64,000 nucleotides of DNA from Naegleria gruberi. Its lineage: Eukaryota. Location: the NCBI GenBank assembly GCA_000004985.1, contig GG738847.1. One strand, written 5' to 3'. Shown here piece by piece: positions 25,497 through 48,475 of the stretch (position 1 is its first letter; every line of letters begins with the position of its first letter). The position numbers were made by a program, and so were the translations under genes. The notes beneath the pieces are model-generated. The model ran no database searches, was not told the origin of the DNA, and saw only the letters and a program-made list of their open reading frames with translations.

Positions 25497-27809
25497 TTTT
25501 CTTAAAGAATTAATTATATTAATATTATAATAGTATTGAAGTTGTCGGTCTCTGTACTAGAAACATTTCTAAATACGTTTTTTAATCATAATAAAGTCTT
25601 TAAAGTTTCATCAGTTACTTCAGATTCATTTGCTGATTTACTTGCTTTGAAGTAAATCACCTTACTTGTTGGTATCCTACATTGACTGTTCTCTAATAAA
25701 TCCTAAATGTTCCAAATAATTATAATATGGTTAAGGTTCAAGAATAAAATATTGGGAAAGAGTTTGTGTTCTTGATTGTTATAACAATACAGATTGTGAA
25801 AATGTTGTGGTGGTGTTGAACTTTCTTATCCAAATAGTGGTCCATCGTATGTTAAATATACCAACCAGACGTCTTCCAATACCTTCCGTACTTATACCAG
25901 ATTGTTTAATCAATGATGATTGTATTGAAAGTGGTTTATCATCAGGTAGAAGTGAATGTATCAATCAAGTTTGTTCTGTTAAAACTTGTGCATCCAATAG
26001 TGATTGTTACAGCTGATTGTGGAACAAATTCTTCATTTTCTGAATAAATCAATTGATTTCCATATTCTCCCAAGTGGATATTAGTGTATAATATCTTTGT
26101 GGATGTTTCTAGAAATATGTTATCACATCCTAACAAGATCAAGAAGTCAGATAATGATGGAGGATATGAGGAAGTGTTTAACCTTAGCTTGAAGTGATGT
26201 GTCTTATAGTATTCGAATAGCAACTTGTAGAGTTGTTTGATTTCAATCTTAAAACTGTATTTCTGAATTTGACCAATAGCAGTTGCAAGTGGAACCAATT
26301 AAATAATTTCGTTCATCAGAGTCATGTATTTAGGATGATATTTGTCATATCTGTCCACAAAGAATTTGGTAACATTTCATTGGAAAATGAGGCAGCAATT
26401 CGAGAGTTACATGAAAGAATTTCAGAATAGAAGTTCACCTCTCTTTGTGATAGATTCCAAATTTTGATTAACCTTTTCAATATAAATATCTATCAAGAGA
26501 GCTAGCAAAACACAAAATGCCATGATATTGAGAATGAGAATAGTCACAACTAGACATTTAGTGTTGGACATAGAAACTGAACCACAACATGCATTCACCT
26601 CAATACCTCCAGTTCCATCACGAGATGCATTGAAACGTTTTCTAATAGTAATTGTTGTGGGATTCGAAGAATGAGCAGGTGAAAAGGATGATGCTTTGGA
26701 AATTCTTCTTAATATCCATAAAAAGGAGGATTATGATTCTGGCCTACACCAATAAAATTCGAACTGAAGTTGAGAAAGGATACTCAAACCAATGATAGCA
26801 AAACATTGGCTTGTTTGATTCTCATTTGTTGTGTTGTTTGATGGTCTTGCCAGTTGTTATTTCATTGGTGACCTCGTTCAGTAGAGAAAAGCAAGAACGT
26901 GGCAAATTAGAAGAGCTCCTCTGGAAAGAATTGCAGAATTTTTGCAATATTAGTATTGGAAAGAGAATGACATTTCACCAATTCCACTTAAAATGATATC
27001 TCCTGAGTACTGCTGCTTGATGTTGAAATGAAGCTTTAGTGTAATTCAGGTAGTTGAGCATATCTTAATCTTGCAACAATACCAGTACCTGGTTTATGTT
27101 AAATGTTGGTATAAAGGTAGAATTAATTGTTTTAGGATATGAACAATTATGTTTCAAGCTAACATCATTATTGGATTTGTGCAATAATTGTAGGTGATGA
27201 GGTTGAAACTTTTCCCAAACTACTCTTGATGGTTGGTGGAGTATTTTGTTGTTGGTAATTTAAATTTTTGTTAACAATATCAACAACAACAACCTTGAAA
27301 CAACAATCCAACAACAATTATTACGATTTTCACGAATAGATTCAAAAATGTTTAAACCTAGAGTGTCGAGTAATCACATATGGACTCTCACCAGTGAACT
27401 CTCATCATAATCTTCTTACAATAAATATAAGGTTTGGTGATGTTGTGCATGATGTTCCGTGTAGTTGTGTTGCTGTGGTTGGTCTCATCATATTTTTGAA
27501 AAAGAGGTATTTTTTATAAAATAATAAATAATTAAAATATGTGATGAAAACTGTAAATTACGATTTTATGAAAAAAATAACAAAATTAAAGCGTATTATC
27601 ATATTCATATGTAGAATTATTTCGGAATGGTGTTAGTGGTGTTAGTGGTGTTGTGGAACAACGAACAGTAATTGTTATCATTGATAGGATTGCTACCATC
27701 CTTTAGTATTAAAACGTGATAGAATGTGTTCTTCAGTGTGTTGGTCATGTAATACCATCACGTTTCAAAAAACAAAAACAAAAAAATTCCTTTAAACATT
27801 GTTTGAACA

Positions 27810-29279
27810 ATGCTTGCACCACAGAAACGAGTTAGTGATTTTGGAGATGGTGGACAAATAGATCAAGTTCAAGTTGAAGAAACCACACCAAATCTTATAA
27901 CTTCCATCATACGATTGAAACAATTTCGCATCAAAGGACGATCATTTGAATTTCAAGAAGTGTTCGAAAATCCAAAAAGTGATACTTTGGTTTGTAAATG
28001 TTTGGGTGATGATGGACATGAATACGTTGTTAAAATTATTAAACTAATTGATGGAATATTTCCAAGTAATGATCCAAATGATACTTATTCAGATGGTTAT
28101 CAAGTAGGAGAATGGAGATTTGCTGAAACTGTGAAACAGTTGTTCGATTCTAGTGTGGTAACTTATGAGGTTTCGGAACTAATTGGTGAAGAAATTGTAC
28201 TTGTATCAGAATACAGAGGAATGGATATGAAAAAATATGGAAAGAACAAATCAGGAAAATTGTTTTTATGTGAAGCGATTCAAATTTTAATTAGAATTGC
28301 TAATGCATTATGCCAACTCTATAAGCATAATATAATTCATAGTGATATCAAACCTGCAAATATCTTTATTACTTTTGAGCCAACCAGTTATTCATTTGAT
28401 GTCATTGATGCTACATTGGGTGATTTGGGAATAGCCAGAACTGTTTTATCAAAAGGTCAGCCAATTTATTCATCTAATATATTTTCTACTCCTGATACTG
28501 CACACACATACTTAACACAGCACGGAACATGTGGTTATATTGCACCAGAATGTTTTAAAGGAGAACAATGTTTATTAAGTGCTGTGAAAAAAAATGGCTT
28601 CGCATTTGAATTTGTTGATGAATTATTAAGAAAAGATAGAGAAATTGTATTGGAAGCAGTTAAACAAAATGGATATGCACTTGAATATGCTGATAGGTCA
28701 TTTAGAAAAGATAGAGAAATTGTACTGGAAGCAGTTAAACAAAATGGACGTGCACTTGAATTTGTTGATGAATCATTAAGAAAAGATAGAGATATTGTAT
28801 TGGAAGCAGTTAAACAAAATGTCTGGGCACTTGAATGTGCTGATGAATCATTAAGAAAAGATAGAGAAATTGTATTGGAAGTAGTTAAATGAGATGGACG
28901 CGAACTTTGCTATGTTGATAAGTTATTAAGAAAAGATAGAGAAATTGTATTGGAAGCAGTTAAACAAAATGGCTGGGCACTTGAACATGTTGATAAATCA
29001 TTAAGAAAAGATAGAGAATTTGTATTGGAAGCAGTTAAACAAAATGGACGTGCACTTGAATATGCTGATGAATCATTGAGAAAAGATAGAGAATTTGTAT
29101 TGGAAGCAGTTAAACAAAATGGACATGCATTTGAATATGTTGATAAATCATTAAGAAAAGATAGAGAATTTGTATTGAAAGCAGTTAAACAAAATGGATG
29201 TGTATTTGAATATGTTGATGAGTCATTAAGAGAAATTATATTAGAAGCTGTCGTTAATGCTGAAACACAGAAATTATGA
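27810..29279 (+). CDS. Protein kinase with a C-terminal array of DUF4116-like 25-aa repeats. The reading frame carries an in-frame TGA at 28890..28892.
   Basis: Kinase motifs HSDIKPANIFI, DLGIAR and GTCGYIAPE. About nine repeats of the form REIVLEAVKQNGxALEYxDESLRKD follow. The same frame continues after the TGA for another 129 codons of repeats. Confidence 0.65.
28573..29250 (+). repeat. Coding tandem repeat with 75-bp period and about nine copies, near-identical at nucleotide level.
   Basis: The unit gaagcagttaaacaaaatgg...ttaagaaaagatagagaaattgtattg recurs directly. Confidence 0.8.
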
Positions 29280-29735
29280 AGTGTATCATTCATAAATATC
29301 AATTCTGCATAAAGTAAGACCCATCTAAAGCAATTCGTCGCCCAATTCTTTCAATTCTCTGGAGTGGATTGTTGCAAATAATAAGAAAAGATAGCACTCA
29401 ATTTAAGTTCATCAACTGTTGTTAAACTGATATCAATTTCGAGTATTTTCAATAATATTCAAAGAAAGTTATCAACCATTTCGTTTGTTGAATAGAAATA
29501 GGAAGAAATAGTCTTTATCAAGTTGATGAATTTCTCAAATACAAGCATGCTAAATTAACAGAAACATGTCAATAATTCATCATTCGAAACAAAACTAATG
29601 AAATAAACAACCACTCGGAGATTTAAGAAATAAAATCTCATTGGCACTTTCAACTAAACCAACATGCACTTGTTTTTGCCTAAATTTGGAAATTTTAAAA
29701 GACAAATTTTTTAAAAAGAAAGCCAAGACGAAACT

Positions 29736-32065
29736 ATGGGAAATCATCACACTAGTGGTTCATCAATGTTTGCATCGGTGAATGATCGTCAAGATGTGAT
29801 GAATCCGAGACAACGAAAACTTCAAGAACAACAATACGAAACTGACCAAGTTTCGAATGACGATGACGAAATGAACCAAGAATTGACTCGGATGGTCAAG
29901 GAACAGGAACAAGTCGATGAGAATGAAATTAAAAATGGTTTGCCATTTGGTGTAATTCTGTTAGGAAGTGCAGATTCAGGAAAGTGTAAGTTTGCAAATT
30001 CGAAACCTTTCTAATAATTTATTGGATGTAATTGGATGAATTTGAAATACATTTTCTAATAGCAACACTTTGGAATCGATGGAAACTACAAACTCAACCC
30101 TTGTCTCAATCAGAGAAGGTAGAATTTGCCAATTCCATCCTCACATATATTATTACATGTTTGAAACGATTACTTGATTTGGCAAAATCGACACTTTCCA
30201 AAGAAGATTATCAAAACTTGTATTCGAAACATGATTTCTCTATTGATTTGCTTTCTCAAATATCAGAATGTGGTTCAACTTTCGAATACTTATTTACGAA
30301 TCCCATTTCAAAGACGAAAATGCAATCTCTGTGGATTGATCATGATTTTATTGCACATTTACCAGCTCTCTTTATGGAACCATGTATTCAAGAGTTGTAT
30401 TTGAATCAATTTAAAGGTAAATCAGATTCGAATAATGATCATTCGAATCATCCTTACTTTCATTCGAATCAGATAGATGGCGAGGAAGGTATCGTCAATG
30501 AAATTCTATTAGGCAATTATCTGCACTACTTTTTACAAACACCTTCCTTCCTACAAGAATTATCCGAAACCTTTACACACTCTGCTGCCAACTCAATATT
30601 GAGAGATTATTCCACCTCTCCTTCAAGTGAATTGTTTTCGAAACCCATCCAATTAACTCTGAATGATATTCTCAAATCAAAGATTGTCACAACCTCAATC
30701 AACACTTTGAAATTTCAATTCTCTAAAAAATCAATCAGCACAAAAGTGATTAAAGTTATTGAGAAGAGAAAGAGAGGATTATCAGGAGCTGCTTTACCTA
30801 ATTCTGGAGTAGTTGCTTCTCCATCAGGTAATTGTCCAAATAATGAATCGATTCAAGTTCATGGAAAATGTGGAAATGTTGCAATTCCAAAATTGGTTTT
30901 GAATACAGTTCCAAAGGAGGAAAAGAGCTTGCTGCCAAAAAGTGCTCGTGGTAATTCCATGACTCCTAGAAGTAATAGTGTGAATAGTAAGCCAGTTTCA
31001 GTTTCCATTACTGCAAATGATGAGAGTGTGCAAAATTCACCACCAAAGAAGACAACCACAAAGAAATTGGTCGAATCGTTGGTTAGAAAACGATCAGGAA
31101 GCAATAATAATGCGAATGCAGCAACAACTAGCACTTCAACAAACTCAAAGGGTCCCTATTTAGTCATCTCTCCTGCAAATTCACCTCGTTCCTCAATTGC
31201 AAGTGAGGGATCTTCGTTTAGTCCATTGCTGGGAACTTCTCCATCGTCCTCATCAATGGGTATGCCTTCTCCTAATTTCAATCAGCAATCAAGTGGAAAT
31301 AATTCTGCCAACATGCAGAGTAGTTCAGGTTCGAGTGTTGTGAGGGCAATGCAAGAGAGTACATTCACTTTGGATTCATTTGAAAAGAAGAAATTACAAA
31401 AGTTTACAATACTAGATACTCCTGGAGTTATTTCTCAGAGAGATTTGGTCAGTATGACATTGAATGCATCAACTCGACCAACAGCAACATTTTCATTGAA
31501 GAGTGTAGTGTTTATGTGTTCATTGGCAGATTTTGATCTCACAACAATAGATGGAAAAGATGATAAAATTAAGAGATTGCATGACAGCTTGGCATTCTTT
31601 GAAAAGACACTTGTCATGTCAAATAATCTCAAAGAAATGAGAAGAATCCTTGTCTTTACTCATGTAGACGTTTTCGAGCATCGAATTCTCAATGAATTGA
31701 CCTCCCCAAAGAAGAAACAATTACTGGAATTGTTGGGAATTGCTGTCAATGAAGATGATTTGGAAAATTGTGAACTTGTTCACTTGACCTTCAAACACAT
31801 TGTCTCACTATTCGAAACTTTGGAAAAGAAGAATCCTCACAAGTACATTCTCGAATATTACGCCCTCAATATGATGGATACTAGAGATGTTTGCGAATTT
31901 ACCTACCACCTCACCATGAGAGATGGTTACACTAAAAAGGATTATCCATCCATGACTTCAATTAATGTCTATTCTTCACCAATAGTTTCTGGATGTGAAT
32001 ACGAGGTCATTCAAAATATCCAAATGGTCAATTCATTCTATGATATTTCTCTAATGTTCCAATAA
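29736..32065 (+). CDS. Highly divergent heterotrimeric G-protein alpha subunit-like protein. Two exons: 29736..29985 and 30063..32065.
   Basis: MGNHHT matches an N-myristoylation consensus. The P-loop-like GVILLGSADSGK|ST is split by a 77-nt intron (gtaagt at 29986 to aatag at 30062). The C-terminal region VVFMCSLADFDLTTIDGKDDKIKRLHDSLAFFEKTLVMSNNLKEMRRILVFTHVDVFEHRI aligns with the G-alpha block AIIFCVALSDYD...NRMHESMKLFDSI...ILFLNKKDLFEEKI. NKxD is changed to THVD and DVGGQ is not recognisable. A Ser/Asn-rich insert of about 300 aa is present. Confidence 0.65.
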
Positions 32066-32209: not shown

Positions 32210-34096
32210 TTAAAATTTCCTTAATTTTGATTTTGGTGTTAAATCTTCCTCAATTTCAACATCTTCATCTTCTTGACTACCATCTTCTCTGCATCGTTTC
32301 AGAGTATCAGCAAACTCCTCTTCCCAAGAATCTACTATAGCATATTCATTATCTTTCAATTCTCTTGAAAGTTTGAGAAGTGTTCGATCCAACAGGAGTC
32401 TATCAGATGCACAATTAATACTACTTGGATTGTTCATTATAGCTGTCTTGACAATTTCGTAATCATCTTGTAAATCCTCGTGAGCCCAATCCAAAGAAGT
32501 TCCCGAATTAGAAACTGCTGCCATTACAATTTCCCTATCACACTTGAATTCATCTGATACAAACTGCAAATTTGGTCCATATCCTTGAACTGCACAAAGT
32601 GTCACCTCTCTATCACGTACATTTTCCGTATTGCTTTCTGAAAATAACCATGGACATTTGTTAACTACTTGTAATGCTATTTCCTTAGTAACAAATTGTG
32701 GGTCAATAAATTGGAAGGAAAATAGCGATTGATTGAGTGCTGCTTGGACAATTTCCTCATTCTGATAATATGCAAATTCCAAGGCAAGTCCATTTTCAGA
32801 TACTGCTTTGAGAATAATATCAGGTCTATTTCTCAATCTATTATCGGCATATTGTAAAGCCAATCCACAATTAGAAACTGCTGTCACTACAATTTCATCA
32901 TCATCTTGCAGCTCTCCTGAGGTGTATCCCAGTGCCATTCCATAATTACTCACAGCAGCTAACAATACATCTCCATCATTCCTTATTTCCCTATGAGTGT
33001 AGCAAATAATCTCTCCATTCTCTTTAGCCAAATTCAATATGAAACTCTTAAAATCGGTTTTATCTGAGTGCACAAAGGCATACTGAATAGCTTCTGGGTT
33101 ATTTCTAATTGCCTCTGCTATTATCTCATCATCAACAAGATCAATATTAGCATACTCCAAAGATTCTCCATTATTTTGAACAGCTTGGAGTATCATTTCT
33201 CTTGTTTGATTTTCATCATTAATTAAACACAGCGCATTTCCATCATATTCTATTAATTTTTCAGACTCTTCGACAGGAAATCCTTCAACATTAATACTAT
33301 CAACTATTTCTCCAGAGTATTTCACAGACAACTTGGTTAATTCGATAATTTCAGAAAGAGACAAATCGTTAACATGTTGCAAATAGTATTGAGAATATGG
33401 ATGAACTTTCATGACTTCAACAAGAATTTCCTTTCCAATACAATTGCCCATAGTATCGTGACATAATCCAAGGTACAGAGCTACCTTATTACCCACTTGT
33501 CTATCTGTCACTGCTGTTGTAGTCTTAACGAATGGATTGTCATTAGCTCCCAGGATTACAATTGCATCACTTGTAACTTCTGAACCAAGATATTCCAAAG
33601 CCATGCCATTACTTTTAACTGCTTCTGTTGTAATTACCGTGTCCCAACATCCATTATTTTCAAAGACCTTAATGGCCATTCCATCCTCTTTAACAGCTTC
33701 CAATATTAAATCTTTTGTAATATATCTCCAATCCATATCCAAAATTAACATTCCATTCTGCTGAACTGCTCTTTTCCTCACTTTATGATGATTCTGTAAT
33801 CGTTGACTTGCTTTTAAATAAAAATCTCCGTGAAAATCAATATATTTTAGCATGACTTCCATATCATCACACAGTTTTTCTTCCATTTCCTCATCATTAC
33901 ACTGTTCAATCAGCAATTCCAAAGTAGAAGCATTTAACCCAGCCAAAGACAATGCATCAATCCGAAGCTTTTGATATTTTACTTGTCGTTCGCGAGAATT
34001 TTTCATAAATTTTCGGAGGAAATTGTAGGCTTGGCTGATGTGTTGATTCCCAGCATCAAAATCGATGAGATGAATGGAACAAGAAATTTCAGACAT
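32210..34096 (-). CDS. DUF4116-like repeat protein, 628 aa.
   Basis: Repeated units of the form (I/V)(L/V)xAVxxNGxALxYA...(L/R)xxDxE, e.g. DREIVMAAVSNSGTSLDWAHEDLQDDYEIV and RPDIILKAVSENGLALEFA. Confidence 0.6.
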   Translation of the reverse strand: MSEISCSIHLIDFDAGNQHISQAYNFLRKFMKNSRERQVKYQKLRIDALSLAGLNASTLELLIEQCNDEEMEEKLCDDMEVMLKYIDFHGDFYLKASQRLQNHHKVRKRAVQQNGMLILDMDWRYITKDLILEAVKEDGMAIKVFENNGCWDTVITTEAVKSNGMALEYLGSEVTSDAIVILGANDNPFVKTTTAVTDRQVGNKVALYLGLCHDTMGNCIGKEILVEVMKVHPYSQYYLQHVNDLSLSEIIELTKLSVKYSGEIVDSINVEGFPVEESEKLIEYDGNALCLINDENQTREMILQAVQNNGESLEYANIDLVDDEIIAEAIRNNPEAIQYAFVHSDKTDFKSFILNLAKENGEIICYTHREIRNDGDVLLAAVSNYGMALGYTSGELQDDDEIVVTAVSNCGLALQYADNRLRNRPDIILKAVSENGLALEFAYYQNEEIVQAALNQSLFSFQFIDPQFVTKEIALQVVNKCPWLFSESNTENVRDREVTLCAVQGYGPNLQFVSDEFKCDREIVMAAVSNSGTSLDWAHEDLQDDYEIVKTAIMNNPSSINCASDRLLLDRTLLKLSRELKDNEYAIVDSWEEEFADTLKRCREDGSQEDEDVEIEEDLTPKSKLRKF

Positions 34097-34486
34097 TTTT
34101 TTTTAAAAAATTAAAAATTTACAATTTTATTTAATAATGTGAACTAAAGGTTTACAATATTGAAAATTTGAAAGAGATGGAATTCTTAAAGGGGAAGATT
34201 GAAGAAATTGTTAATGCACACGAGGCGAACCATTCTTTCTAATAATACTCGAAACTAAACTACCTCGGACGCTCAAATTTCATCTATCGCACATTTGTCG
34301 GTCATATTAGTAAACATTCCAGTTTAATAAATTCGCAATTTTAAGAAAATTTCAAAAAACAAAATCAAAAAAAAATTCAAAAAACGTTGAACAAAGGAAG
34401 AATTTTTCAATCTCTTCAAAATATTCATCATCATCATCAATTAAATAATAATAATAATTTTATTCATTCCGATCATCATTATCATC

Positions 34487-35434
34487 ATGTTTGTCGCAGT
34501 TACAGGAGCTTCAGGATATATTGCCGGACATATTGTTAAACAATTATTGGAAAATGGACATAGAGTGAGAGGTGTTGTCAGAGATTTATCAAACAAGAGC
34601 AAGTATGATTATTTGGAAAAGTTTGCAAACTTGGAAAATCAATTGGAATTTGTGCAAGTCAATGATCAAAATTATGAGAATGCATTTGTTGGAGTGGATG
34701 CTGTGATTCATACTGCTACTCCTTATATTTACACTGCTAAGGATCCACAGAAGGAGATTGTAGAACCAGCTGTCAATTTGACAAGAGGTGTGATTGAGGC
34801 TGCTCTTAAGAATCAAGTGAAGAGAGTTGTGATTACTTCTTCTGGAGGTGCAATTTTCAGTTTCCCAGTTCCACAAGGAAAGATCTTTACTAGCAATGAT
34901 TGGAATCTTCAAAGTAATCTCACTAATAATCCATATTTCTATTCCAAGAGATTGGCTGAAGAGGAAGCTTGGAGATTATATAAGGAAAATTCTGACAAGA
35001 TTGAAATTGTTGTTGTGAATCCAGTTTATGTTTTGGGACCAACTTTGAATCCATTTATCAATACCAGTGTTGAAAATTTGAAAAAGTACTTGTTGGGTGA
35101 ACATGAAACAGTTCAAGTTGGAGGAATTGCAATTGTTGATGTGAGAAATGTAGCAACAGCTCATGTATTGGCAGTGGAAAAGAAGGAAGCTGCTGGAAAG
35201 AGATTAATCTGTAGTGGACAAGTTTGTAATTGGTCCGATATTCCAAAAACTCTCAAACAACAATTCCCTCAATATGCTGTAAGCAAGTACACTGAATTCC
35301 CAGAAGCTACTACATATGGAATGGATACTCAACCACTCAAAGATTTGGGACTTGTTGAATATTATTCATTTGAGCAAACTATTAGGGATACTGTTGAATC
35401 TCTATTGGAACATAATTTGATCGAAAAGTTGTAA
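34487..35434 (+). CDS. NAD(P)-dependent epimerase/dehydratase-family reductase, cinnamoyl-CoA reductase / GRE2-like.
   Basis: Rossmann motif VTGASGYIAGHIVKQLLENGHRVRGVVRD. Catalytic YxxxK region YFYSKRLAEEEAW. Confidence 0.8.
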   Translation: MFVAVTGASGYIAGHIVKQLLENGHRVRGVVRDLSNKSKYDYLEKFANLENQLEFVQVNDQNYENAFVGVDAVIHTATPYIYTAKDPQKEIVEPAVNLTRGVIEAALKNQVKRVVITSSGGAIFSFPVPQGKIFTSNDWNLQSNLTNNPYFYSKRLAEEEAWRLYKENSDKIEIVVVNPVYVLGPTLNPFINTSVENLKKYLLGEHETVQVGGIAIVDVRNVATAHVLAVEKKEAAGKRLICSGQVCNWSDIPKTLKQQFPQYAVSKYTEFPEATTYGMDTQPLKDLGLVEYYSFEQTIRDTVESLLEHNLIEKL

Positions 35435-46365: not shown

Positions 46366-48475
46366 ATGTCCTCATTGACGATCATTAAAAAATGTGTCTT
46401 TGGTAGGTAGTACTCTGCTTCAATCATTCGCTCATCAACTTTAGTTGGAAGTTGTTATAGAGAAAAAACAGCACTTCTTTGTACCGTTTCGACTGGAACC
46501 TATCCGGAAGGTAAGTTTCGAATAATTATTTCACAAAAATTGATAACTTTTATAGAATATGTACCTACCGTGATGGATAATCATTATGTTACTTTGAAAT
46601 TTGAAGGAACTTCTTTTTCGTTAGGGTTGTGGGATACGGCTGGTCAAGAAGAGTAAGTTGAAAATTTGGCATTTGACAATTTGACTGTTACTAGATGGGA
46701 GTAAGTATTCAAGTAGAGATCTTTTGTGGATTGATCAAACTAGTCGTTTGAGACCACTTTCTTATCCAGAGTATGTAAAATTCTTTTCATTTCTCAAAAA
46801 CGAAACCTTTCCAATAGAACTAATGTATTTGTTGTTTGTTTTTCAATTGTAGATTACGCATCCTTCACTGATGTCAAGTATAAATGGGTTCCAGAACTCC
46901 ATCATCACTGTCCTGATGCTACAATCATCTTGTGTGCAGTCCAGATTGAACTCAGAAATGACGAAACTAGACGAATTGAAGTCACCAAAGAAATGGCAGA
47001 AGAAATGGCAAAGGAAACCAATTGTGCTGGTTATATCGAATGTTCTGCAAAAAATGGAATTGGAATTAGCGAACTACTCGAAACAATTAAGGAATTTGCA
47101 TTATTTCCTGAGAGAGCAGATAAAAAATCAAAAAAGAAATCTTCAAGCAAATCTGGAATTTTTGGAAGATTGAAGAATGTTTTCCAAGTTAAACCAACTG
47201 GTAATTCACCTAATTCATCTCCAACTATAATGGAATCGAAGCAATCTTCTGACAATTCAACAATTATTCGATTGCCAATGCTTAGTACACCAAATGTCAT
47301 GCCAGATGTCAGAACTACACCAGTAATTGAAGAGAAGCAAGCAAATAGTCCATCAATGTCAAGAGATTTCAATCAAGTTCCATTTGAGGATTGGACAGCT
47401 GAAGAAGTTTCAAAATGGCTTCAATCCAAAGGTTGCAATCAAACAGTCATTGACAGTAAGTATTTCACATGAATATTTTAACAATTGACATTTTCAAGCA
47501 TTGAAGAATAATGATTTTGGAGGAACTGCCCTGCTCTATTGTGATAAACAAGATTTAACAAGTTTGGGAATTTCTTTAGGAAATTCAATTACAATTATGA
47601 AATGGATTGAAAGTTTTAAAAAGAATTCTGACACTGGTTCAGCAACACCTTCATTGGAAAAACAATCTGTTGGAAGCAGTGTTGGTAACTCTTCATCGTC
47701 CTCCTCTGATTTCCCTTCCTCTTTCCAAATGGATTTGAAAGCTAACGAAACTTTTTCCAATAACAATGAAAAGGAGCAAGAAAATGAATTTGAAAAGAGA
47801 TATATCATTTTGGAGAAATTGGGAGAAGGTGGATTTGGAAAGGTCTATAAAGTAAAGACCAAAAAGACAAATCAAATTAGAGCTGTCAAGATTGTTTCAC
47901 CAAGTCAGGATTTCACAATCAATCAGGCCTTATCTGAAGCATTGAAACAAGCTCAATTATATAGAGATGATAATCACATTGTTCACGTGTATGATGTCTT
48001 TATTGCAGTGGAGAATTATGGGCAGATTGTTTGCATTGAAATGGATTGTATGGAGGGAAATCTACGTACAATCTTTAGAGGAAGAAAGGTTTCGGAAGGA
48101 ATGATTTGGTCAATTCTGAGGCAAATTGGAGCTGCTCTCAAGTTCCTTTCTGAGAGTGGAAAGATTGTACACAGAGATATCAAACCAGATAATATTCTTG
48201 TTAAGAAAGTGGATTTTGAAACAGACGAAATTGACGTTTATTTGAGTGATTTCGGATTGGCCAAGTCAACCCAAAATTCCATGCAAACATCACATCTTTC
48301 AGGAACCATTTTCTTCCTAGCTCCAGAAATTCTTGATTTTGGAAATTCATTGAATGGTGAGACATGTCGTACTCCTTATTCGATTGCTTCTGATATATTT
48401 GCACTAGGAGTTTCTCTCTATCAAATTATGTGTCAAACGTTGCATCGTTCCTCGCAACTAGCCAACCTTTCTTAA
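46366..48475 (+). CDS. Rho-family-like GTPase fused to a SAM domain and a Ser/Thr protein kinase. Seven exons: 46366..46402, 46445..46510, 46556..46652, 46695..46700, 46744..46770, 46818..47455, 47499..48475.
   Basis: The spliced product reads MSSLTIIKKCVFGVGSCYREKTALLCTVSTGTYPEEYVPTVMDNHYVTLKFEGTSFSLGLWDTAGQEEWDRLRPLSYPETNVFVVCFSIVDYASFTDVKYKWVPELHHHCPDATIILCAVQIELRND...YIECSAKNG. This is co-linear with RhoA. The 6-nt microexon ATGGGA supplies the EW of the QEDYD-equivalent. A SAM domain (FEDWTAEEVSKWLQSKGCNQTVID|TLKNNDFGGTALLYCDKQDLTSLGISLGNSITIMKWI) spans the last intron. The kinase carries GEGGFGKVYK, HRDIKPDNILV, SDFGLAKS and FFLAPE. Confidence 0.7.

What the first reader, a model, noticed from the sequence alone, without database searches (positions are those of the whole stretch)
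27810..29279. Kinase-DUF4116 repeat gene interrupted by an in-frame TGA that sits inside a possible 42-nt cryptic intron
After nine near-identical 75-bp repeats, the frame hits TGA at 28890-28892 (VLEVVK*DGRELCYVDK) and then continues in the same frame through four more perfect repeats to a TAA at 29279. The stop-containing copy differs at several positions from its neighbours. Its c-to-t change creates GTAGTT, and the segment up to ...TGATAAG is exactly 42 nt (28881..28922). That is a multiple of three and within this genome's intron size range, so the stop may be spliced out. Otherwise this is a fresh truncation or pseudogenisation of a rapidly homogenising repeat array. The high nucleotide identity between units indicates concerted evolution or recent expansion.
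Basis: seen in the sequence. Interest (0 to 1): 0.6.

Follow-up and report, generated by a model that had tools for sequence, protein, structure and literature searches.

The report
Stop codon in decaying kinase-repeat gene
A Naegleria gruberi gene that fuses a protein-kinase remnant to a young repeat array carries a real in-frame stop codon. The 42-base "intron" that would hide it, already drawn in the public gene model, does not look like this organism's real introns, so this is most likely an ordinary decaying gene copy.

Summary
The window is Naegleria gruberi NEG-M. The gene at 27810-29279(+) is NAEGRDRAFT_62160 (XP_002682207.1). The in-frame TGA at 28890-28892 is real, and the GT...AG segment 28881-28922 is exactly 42 nt. 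The public 475-aa model already removes exactly this segment, so the intron idea is not new.

Four repeat units precede the stop-bearing unit, not nine. The units are 80-93% identical, not perfect. The final stop is TGA, not TAA.

The intron reading is weak:
- Fourteen real introns in the same window are 39-85 nt; six of them are confirmed by domain continuity. All start GTAAGT or GTATGT, 10 of 14 end TAG, and GC is 16-33%.
- The candidate starts GTAGTT, ends AAG and has 38% GC.
- Its donor scores 0.9 bits against 5.7-11.4 for real introns.
- 21% of random coding codons can be bridged by an in-frame GT..AG at least as good.

The gene is also damaged elsewhere. Compared with three intact N. gruberi paralogs, it has lost kinase subdomains IX-XI and the linker.

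Best reading: a decaying or truncated paralog, with an annotation that papers over the stop. RNA-seq would settle it. Interest is low.

The parts
27810..29279 (+). Whole gene NAEGRDRAFT_62160 (XP_002682207.1 / EFC49463.1 / D2V040). It runs from the ATG to the terminal TGA and is interrupted by one in-frame TGA.
27810..28580 (+). Kinase remnant (aa 1-257). It holds the N-lobe and the C-lobe only up to the APE motif (GYIAPECFKGEQ). Subdomains IX-XI and the ~50-aa linker present in the paralogs are missing.
   Evidence: Pfam Pkinase covers only profile 57-173 of 263. Paralogs P0121, P0123 and P0135 cover about 9-261 of 263. The alignment shows the internal gap. PDB kinase hits are weak and stop before the C-lobe end.
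28581..28880 (+). DUF4116 units U1-U4, 75 nt (25 aa) each, upstream of the stop.
28881..28955 (+). Unit U5, the divergent unit that carries the stop. It has 13 differences from the consensus, all within nt 2-44 of the unit. Six are at columns invariant in the other eight units (A1V, Q4*, N5D, E10C).
28890..28892 (+). In-frame TGA replacing the consensus CAA (Gln). This needs two base changes.
28881..28922 (+). The hypothetical 42-nt intron (GTAGTT...GATAAG). It is removed in the public 475-aa gene model. Its splice signals are at the level of coding-sequence decoys.
28956..29276 (+). Units U6-U9 plus a short tail, in frame downstream of the TGA. They are probably untranslated relic sequence unless the stop is bypassed.
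29277..29279 (+). Terminal stop codon, TGA (not TAA).

Best explanation
This is a degenerating, or at best truncated, member of a Naegleria gruberi-specific family of kinase + DUF4116-repeat proteins.

An ancestral full-length copy had a complete kinase, a linker and diverged DUF4116 repeats, as in NAEGRDRAFT_53795, _68631 and _75119. That copy suffered an in-frame internal deletion. The deletion removed kinase subdomains IX-XI and the linker, joining ...APECFKGE to a repeat.

The 75-bp repeat was then amplified or homogenised at the DNA level, by unequal crossing-over or gene conversion. One unit (U5) picked up a cluster of changes at otherwise invariant positions, including CAA->TGA.

Translation most likely stops at this TGA. 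The product would be a 360-aa protein with a non-catalytic kinase stump and four repeats. Alternatively the locus is simply a pseudogene.

The 42-nt GT...AG intron in the public model is most likely a gene-predictor device to keep the frame open, not a spliced intron.

Shown: the stop, the deletion relative to the paralogs, the unusual DNA-level homogeneity of the array, and the non-consensus splice signals. Inferred: the order of events, the absence of splicing, and the loss of function.
For: - Identity and annotation: P0001 is 99% identical and 475 aa long, which equals 489 minus 14 codons. The junction is exactly REIVLE|LLRKD.
- Kinase truncation: Pfam Pkinase covers profile 57-173 of 263 here, against about 9-261 of 263 in the paralogs. 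The alignment shows the missing DIWSLGR...RPS block and linker.
- Real introns: 14 in the window. Six are validated independently of the splice motif, by uninterrupted Ras, SAM and G-alpha Pfam matches across the junctions. A motif-blind junction scan gave GTAAGT or GTATGT at 5 of 5 clear junctions. All 14 start GTA[A/T]GT, 10 end TAG, GC is 16-33%, and length is 39-85 nt.
- Candidate scores: donor 0.94 bits against 5.7-11.4 for real introns; acceptor 0.22 bits. 15% of GT decoys and 54% of AG decoys in coding sequence score at least as high. 21% of random codons are bridgeable by an in-frame GT..AG at least as good.
- An intact paralog is one uninterrupted 850-codon ORF in an independent environmental strain.
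- Only this gene's array shows DNA-level tandem repeats.
- AF2 of the annotated product dips to pLDDT 65 at the junction, inside repeats otherwise at 94-98.
- No SECIS or other Rfam match.
Against: - No transcript, EST or proteomic data could be consulted, so splicing is untested.
- The candidate does have GT...AG, a multiple-of-3 length and a size typical of this genome. Both terminal dinucleotides are U5-specific departures from the array majority, although U2's AGG gives the same AG at the same unit columns. All U5-specific changes lie within or 2 nt beyond the 42 nt. That pattern is what one would expect if just this segment had escaped coding constraint.
- Units downstream of the stop show no more private changes at invariant columns than upstream units (0-1 against 1-2). 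There is therefore no sign of post-stop decay.
- Eight of the 14 introns in the reference set were found by scanning for GTA[A/T]GT, which inflates the apparent donor uniformity.
- The kinase deletion is in frame, which is compatible with continued use of the gene.
Confidence: 0.72

Rival explanations
1. The 42-nt segment is a genuine intron, possibly newly born by intronisation. After or together with the nonsense change, GCA->GTA and AAA->AAG created GT...AG ends. The spliceosome removes 28881-28922 and the cell makes the 475-aa protein of the public model.
For: - GT...AG ends, 42 nt, phase 0 and a multiple of 3.
- Validated introns of 42 and 43 nt exist in the same window.
- Two of 14 real introns also end AAG.
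- All U5-specific substitutions lie in nt 2-44 of the unit, and the 31 nt after the segment are unchanged.
- Downstream units are undecayed.
- The public model uses this intron.
Against: - Donor GTAGTT lacks A4 and G5, which are invariant or near-invariant in all 14 local introns. It scores 0.94 bits, against a minimum of 5.7.
- GC is 38%, against 33% or less in real introns.
- Signals this good occur by chance around 21% of coding codons.
- The product would carry an 11-residue half-unit that AF2 models with low confidence.
- An intact paralog array is intronless.
- The annotation is an automated 'predicted protein', and no transcript support for this model was found.
Confidence: 0.13
2. The TGA is an assembly or sequencing artefact, or a null allele of a heterozygous locus. 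The real or other-haplotype gene would then have an open unit 5.
For: - Tandem repeats are error-prone to assemble.
- Established knowledge, not tested here: N. gruberi NEG-M is reported to carry allelic heterozygosity.
Against: - CAA->TGA needs two changes and sits among about 11 other unit-specific substitutions. It is therefore not a base-calling slip.
- The patch sequence occurs nowhere else in the window, so a local chimeric join within these 64 kb is unlikely.
- The whole array, about 650 bp, is about the length of a single Sanger read (established knowledge, not tested here).
Confidence: 0.08
3. The TGA is decoded, either as selenocysteine or by programmed readthrough, giving a 489-aa protein.
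For: - N. gruberi has selenocysteine machinery (recalled from the literature, not tested here).
- The frame stays open for 128 codons after the TGA.
Against: - No SECIS or any Rfam match in 27000-30200 at E<=1.
- The codon aligns with Gln or Lys of the repeat consensus, not with Cys.
- The context TGA-G is not a known readthrough context (established knowledge).
- The same gene uses TGA as its terminal stop.
Confidence: 0.02

Closest known systems
Intact N. gruberi kinase-DUF4116 paralogs NAEGRDRAFT_53795 (850 aa), _68631 (404 aa) and _75119 (691 aa)
   Same: They share the same architecture and an atypical kinase: no GxGxxG loop, HxDIKPxN and D[FL]G retained. Identity is 39-46% over the kinase part, followed by DUF4116 repeats.
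   Different: The paralogs have a complete kinase domain and a ~50-aa linker. Their repeats are diverged: TRF found no DNA-level tandem repeat in the one paralog whose DNA was available (_53795, L001). Their ORFs are uninterrupted. This gene lacks subdomains IX-XI and the linker, has a homogenised 75-bp array, and carries an in-frame TGA.
Unprocessed (duplicated) pseudogene, or decaying paralog, in a lineage-specific multigene family
   Same: It is homologous to intact paralogs in the same genome and carries two disabling lesions: a deletion of an essential domain and a premature stop.
   Different: There are no frameshifts, the downstream units are not visibly decayed, and expression status is unknown. 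It may still produce a truncated protein.
Stop-skipping mini-introns introduced by automated eukaryotic gene prediction (annotation artefact)
   Same: It is a short, phase-0, multiple-of-3 GT-AG 'intron' whose only effect is to remove an in-frame stop. Its splice signals are no better than coding-sequence decoys.
   Different: It could not be verified here whether the public model had EST support.
Intronisation: birth of an intron from exonic sequence after a nonsense mutation, proposed by Irimia et al. and Catania & Lynch (recalled, not read here)
   Same: A stop-containing coding segment is bounded by newly created GT and AG, with a length that is a multiple of three.
   Different: Splicing is not demonstrated, and the donor does not match this species' very uniform GTAAGT.

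Membership tests
Spliceosomal GT-AG intron of N. gruberi | GT...AG termini and a length within the species' range | tested here: met
   28881 is GT, 28921-28922 is AG, and the length is 42 nt. Local real introns are 39-85 nt, including 42 and 43 nt.
Spliceosomal GT-AG intron of N. gruberi | 5' splice site GTAAGT or GTATGT | tested here: not met
   The candidate is GTAGTT. 13 of 14 local introns are GTAAGT and 1 of 14 is GTATGT. The PWM score is 0.94 bits against 5.7-11.4 in leave-one-out scoring. 15% of coding-sequence GT decoys score at least as high. Caveat: part of the reference set was picked by this motif. The 6 homology-validated introns and the 5 from the motif-blind scan agree.
Spliceosomal GT-AG intron of N. 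gruberi | 3' end with an A/T-rich tract and YAG (mostly TAG), and low GC | tested here: inconclusive
   The candidate ends GTTGATAAG, scoring 0.22 bits. The true range is -2.1 to 7.4 with a median near 4.7. AAG is seen in 2 of 14 real introns. GC is 38% against 16-33%.
Spliceosomal GT-AG intron of N. gruberi | Removed from mature mRNA | not testable with these tools
   No read or EST data were accessible. Neither the 360-aa nor the 475-aa product is in the contig index.
Kinase-DUF4116 protein family (N. gruberi) | Complete protein-kinase catalytic domain | tested here: not met
   Pfam Pkinase covers profile 57-173 of 263. The paralogs cover about 9-261 of 263. Subdomains IX-XI are absent.
Kinase-DUF4116 protein family (N. 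gruberi) | C-terminal DUF4116 repeat array | tested here: met
   PF13475 scores E=8.7e-50 upstream of the stop and E=1.7e-87 downstream.
Kinase-DUF4116 protein family (N. gruberi) | Uninterrupted reading frame | tested here: not met
   TGA at 28890-28892. Paralog _53795 is a single 850-codon ORF in L001.
Pseudogene | Disabling lesions relative to intact homologues | tested here: met
   A premature stop plus loss of the kinase C-lobe.
Pseudogene | Neutral evolution or no expression | tested here: inconclusive
   Between-unit pN/pS is 0.75, and 0.95 for U5 against the others. Repeats diverge this way even when functional. There is no extra decay downstream of the stop. Expression was not testable.
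Selenoprotein gene (TGA = Sec) | SECIS element in the 3' UTR, and Sec aligned with Cys in homologues | tested here: not met
   No Rfam hit in 27000-30200. The codon aligns with Gln or Lys in all other units.

The most novel reading that the evidence does not exclude
The 42-nt segment is an intron caught at birth (intronisation). A nonsense-bearing stretch of a young coding repeat would have acquired GT and AG ends and would be spliced, at least partly, despite a non-consensus donor. That would rescue the downstream repeats. It would be a dated, sequence-resolved example of intron gain from exon sequence in a heterolobosean, with the ancestral coding state still visible in eight sister repeats.
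Probability: 0.1. Interest if true: 0.55.

Novelty: new member of a known kind. Interest (0 to 1): 0.15.

Why it matters
Mostly as a caution. The public N. gruberi protein XP_002682207.1 (D2V040) probably describes a product that is never made. It skips an in-frame stop with an intron that does not resemble the organism's real introns. It is also carried as a Pkinase-domain protein, although a third of the catalytic domain is missing.

Two points have modest biological interest. N. gruberi has a small lineage-specific family of kinase-DUF4116 proteins. One member also shows how such repeat arrays are amplified and then decay. If RNA data showed splicing, the locus would become a clean case of intron birth from coding sequence.

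Tried and rejected
- Selenocysteine or structured-RNA recoding: an Rfam scan of 27000-30200 at E<=1 found nothing.
- Gene-conversion donor for the divergent patch: the 36-nt patch has no second copy in the window, even with 3 mismatches. The rest of the genome was not searchable.
- Other in-frame single-stop ORF pairs in the window (59350, 63160, 36160) looked similar at first. They are ordinary gene boundaries, each with a new AAAAAATG start.
- Transcript or other-strain copies: exact look-ups of the 475-aa and 360-aa products found nothing. A word-index protein search with the kinase part returned nothing, not even the gene's own protein. A tblastn scan and an exact 23-mer scan of JGI metagenomes both found nothing.
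- A naive all-GT/AG junction enumeration was too noisy to define introns. It was replaced by coding-score-filtered and homology-validated sets.
- The Fritz-Laylin 2010 genome paper was not available in the library. Genome-wide intron statistics are therefore not cited.
- AF2 of the kinase part is uninformative, because there was no alignment depth there (pLDDT 30-60).
- The DUF4116 literature gives only a predicted alpha-solenoid fold and no function.

Full report
**Identity of the locus**

The window has about 33% GC. A protein search with the 360-aa ORF 27810-28889 returned one near-identical hit, P0001. It is 99% identical, 475 aa long, and named 'predicted protein [Naegleria gruberi]'. Its accessions are XP_002682207.1, EFC49463.1 and D2V040, its locus tag is NAEGRDRAFT_62160, and it lies on a 941,567-bp scaffold.

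P0001 equals the window translation with residues VVK*DGRELCYVDK removed. Its junction reads ...REIVLE|LLRKDREIVLE.... The idea is not new. Its presence in an automated model is also not evidence that splicing occurs.

**Checking the observation**

The in-frame TGA is at 28890-28892. The GT at 28881 comes from GCAGTT becoming GTAGTT. The AG is at 28921-28922, and the segment is 42 nt long. All of this is as described.

Several details are wrong:
- The 75-nt array starts at 28581 and has nine units in all. TRF reports 8.6 copies and 85% matches. Four units precede the stop-bearing unit U5, and four follow it. The last unit is degenerate.
- The units differ from each other at 5-15 of 75 positions. 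U5 differs from the others at 14-17 positions. They are not near-identical or perfect.
- The terminal stop at 29277-29279 is TGA, not TAA.

**What the gene is**

Pfam finds DUF4116 on both sides of the stop, at E=8.7e-50 and E=1.7e-87. It finds a protein-kinase match that covers only profile positions 57-173 of 263.

An exhaustive HMMER search with the kinase part (aa 1-257) found three relatives well above generic kinases: P0121, P0123 and P0135, at 39-46% identity. All three are N. gruberi proteins: NAEGRDRAFT_68631, _53795 and _75119. Each has a complete kinase domain (profile about 9-261 of 263, N-terminally shorter in P0135), then a linker of about 50 aa, then DUF4116 repeats.

In the alignment, the present gene goes straight from GYIAPECFKGE to the first repeat. 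It lacks the DIWSLGR...RPS block (subdomains IX-XI) and the linker. It is therefore an internally deleted member of a small N. gruberi-specific kinase-DUF4116 family. By established knowledge of kinase structure, a domain without the alpha-F to alpha-I helices cannot be a catalytically competent fold. That last step is an inference.

**The repeat array**

This gene's array is detectable as a DNA-level tandem repeat (score 910). Two other DUF4116 arrays are not:
- The intact paralog _53795, read from an environmental contig L001. It is 99% identical in protein and a single 850-codon ORF.
- The neighbouring DUF4116 gene at 32213-34102(-).

Between-unit pN/pS is 0.75. It is 0.4 outside the hypervariable codons, about 1.1 within them, and 0.95 for U5 against the rest. 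This is not discriminating.

U5 carries 13 differences from the consensus, all within nt 2-44 of the unit. Six are at columns invariant in the other eight units, against 0-2 for U1-4 and U6-8. Units after the stop are no more decayed than units before it.

**Is the 42-nt segment an intron?**

I assembled 14 introns from the same window. Six are validated independently of splice motifs, because their removal restores uninterrupted Pfam matches:
- Ras family 10-167 against profile 4-157 of 162, across introns 46511-46555, 46653-46694, 46701-46743 and 46771-46817.
- SAM, across 47456-47498.
- G-alpha, across 29986-30062.

A motif-blind scan looked for GT sites at the ends of strongly coding ORFs. 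It gave seven junction loci. Five clear ones offer GTAAGT or GTATGT. One, at 34694, is doubtful. The seventh is the candidate, which offers only GTATTG, GTAGTT or GTTAAA.

Across the 14 introns:
- Length is 39-85 nt, so 42 nt is indeed typical.
- Donors are GTAAGT 13 times and GTATGT once.
- Acceptors are TAG 10 times, CAG twice and AAG twice.
- GC is 16-33%.

The candidate is GTAGTT...GATAAG with 38% GC:
- Its donor scores 0.94 bits, against 5.7-11.4 for real introns in leave-one-out scoring.
- Its acceptor scores 0.22 bits, against a median near 4.7.
- 15% of GT sites and 54% of AG sites inside long ORFs score at least as well.

In a simulation over long ORFs, 84% of random codons could be bridged by some in-frame GT..AG of 27-99 nt. 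21% could be bridged by one with both sites at least as good as the candidate. Only 3% could be bridged by one reaching the weakest real intron.

One caveat applies. Eight of the 14 reference introns were found by scanning for GTA[A/T]GT, so donor uniformity is somewhat overstated. The motif-independent subsets agree.

AF2 of the annotated 475-aa product gives the repeats pLDDT 94-98. It dips to 65 at residues 351-360, which is the hypothetical exon junction. There an 11-residue half-unit breaks the 25-residue period. This is compatible with a tolerated irregularity and so counts only as mild evidence. DUF4116 is otherwise only known as a predicted alpha-solenoid (PMC8078820).

**Other ways past the stop**

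No SECIS or other Rfam family matches 27000-30200. The TGA aligns with Gln or Lys in the sister units, not with Cys. The gene also ends in TGA.

The divergent patch has no second copy in the window.

A base-calling error is unlikely, because CAA->TGA needs two changes and sits among about 11 other U5-specific substitutions. A null allele of a heterozygous locus remains possible.

**Verdict**

The most likely reading (about 0.7) is an ordinary decaying or truncated paralog. It has a kinase C-lobe deletion and a premature TGA inside a recently amplified repeat array. The public annotation bridges the stop with a non-consensus mini-intron.

The intron or intronisation reading keeps about 0.1-0.15, for three reasons:
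- The segment has the right size and termini.
- All U5-specific changes fall in or next to it.
- Downstream units are intact.

Direct evidence was unobtainable. Neither product is in the contig index, and JGI metagenome scans found no orthologue. Mapping existing N. gruberi RNA-seq (PRJEB23822, PMC6142364) across 28880|28923 would decide the matter.

Noticed in passing
window 46412-48472 (+): A Rho-like GTPase-SAM-kinase fusion gene with four tiny introns: 46511-46555 (45 nt), 46653-46694 (42 nt), 46701-46743 (43 nt) and 46771-46817 (47 nt). It also has a 6-nt micro-exon, ATGGGA, at 46695-46700, which supplies E/W/D in GQEEWDRLRPLSYP. The spliced product matches Pfam Ras in one uninterrupted stretch.
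   Followed up: partly
window 32213-34102 (-): A second DUF4116 gene of 630 aa lies 3 kb away, with 8 Pfam stretches and no kinase. It has no DNA-level tandem repeat. DUF4116 genes may be locally clustered.
   Followed up: partly
window 29736-32065 (+): A divergent G-alpha gene whose P-loop (GSADSGK|ST) is split by a 77-nt intron at 29986-30062. It carries a long low-complexity Ser/Asn-rich insert.
   Followed up: partly
window 27628-27656: A 9-nt tandem repeat, TGGTGTTAG x3.3, about 150 nt upstream of the kinase-DUF4116 start codon.
   Followed up: no
L001 107-2659 (ENA ERZ929261 / ERR1078381, PRJEB11402): A metagenome contig carries an intact, intronless copy of paralog NAEGRDRAFT_53795 (841 of 850 residues identical). 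An environmental N. gruberi strain is therefore present in that dataset and could supply the orthologue of the gene studied here.
   Followed up: partly
window 28910-29302 (-): A 130-aa antisense ORF runs through the repeat array. It is a by-product of the periodic sequence, not a gene.
   Followed up: no
(tool behaviour): The word-index protein search with the kinase part (aa 1-257) returned no hit, not even the gene's own 100%-identical protein P0001. The exhaustive HMMER search did find it. Negative results from the word-index search should be treated with care.
   Followed up: yes
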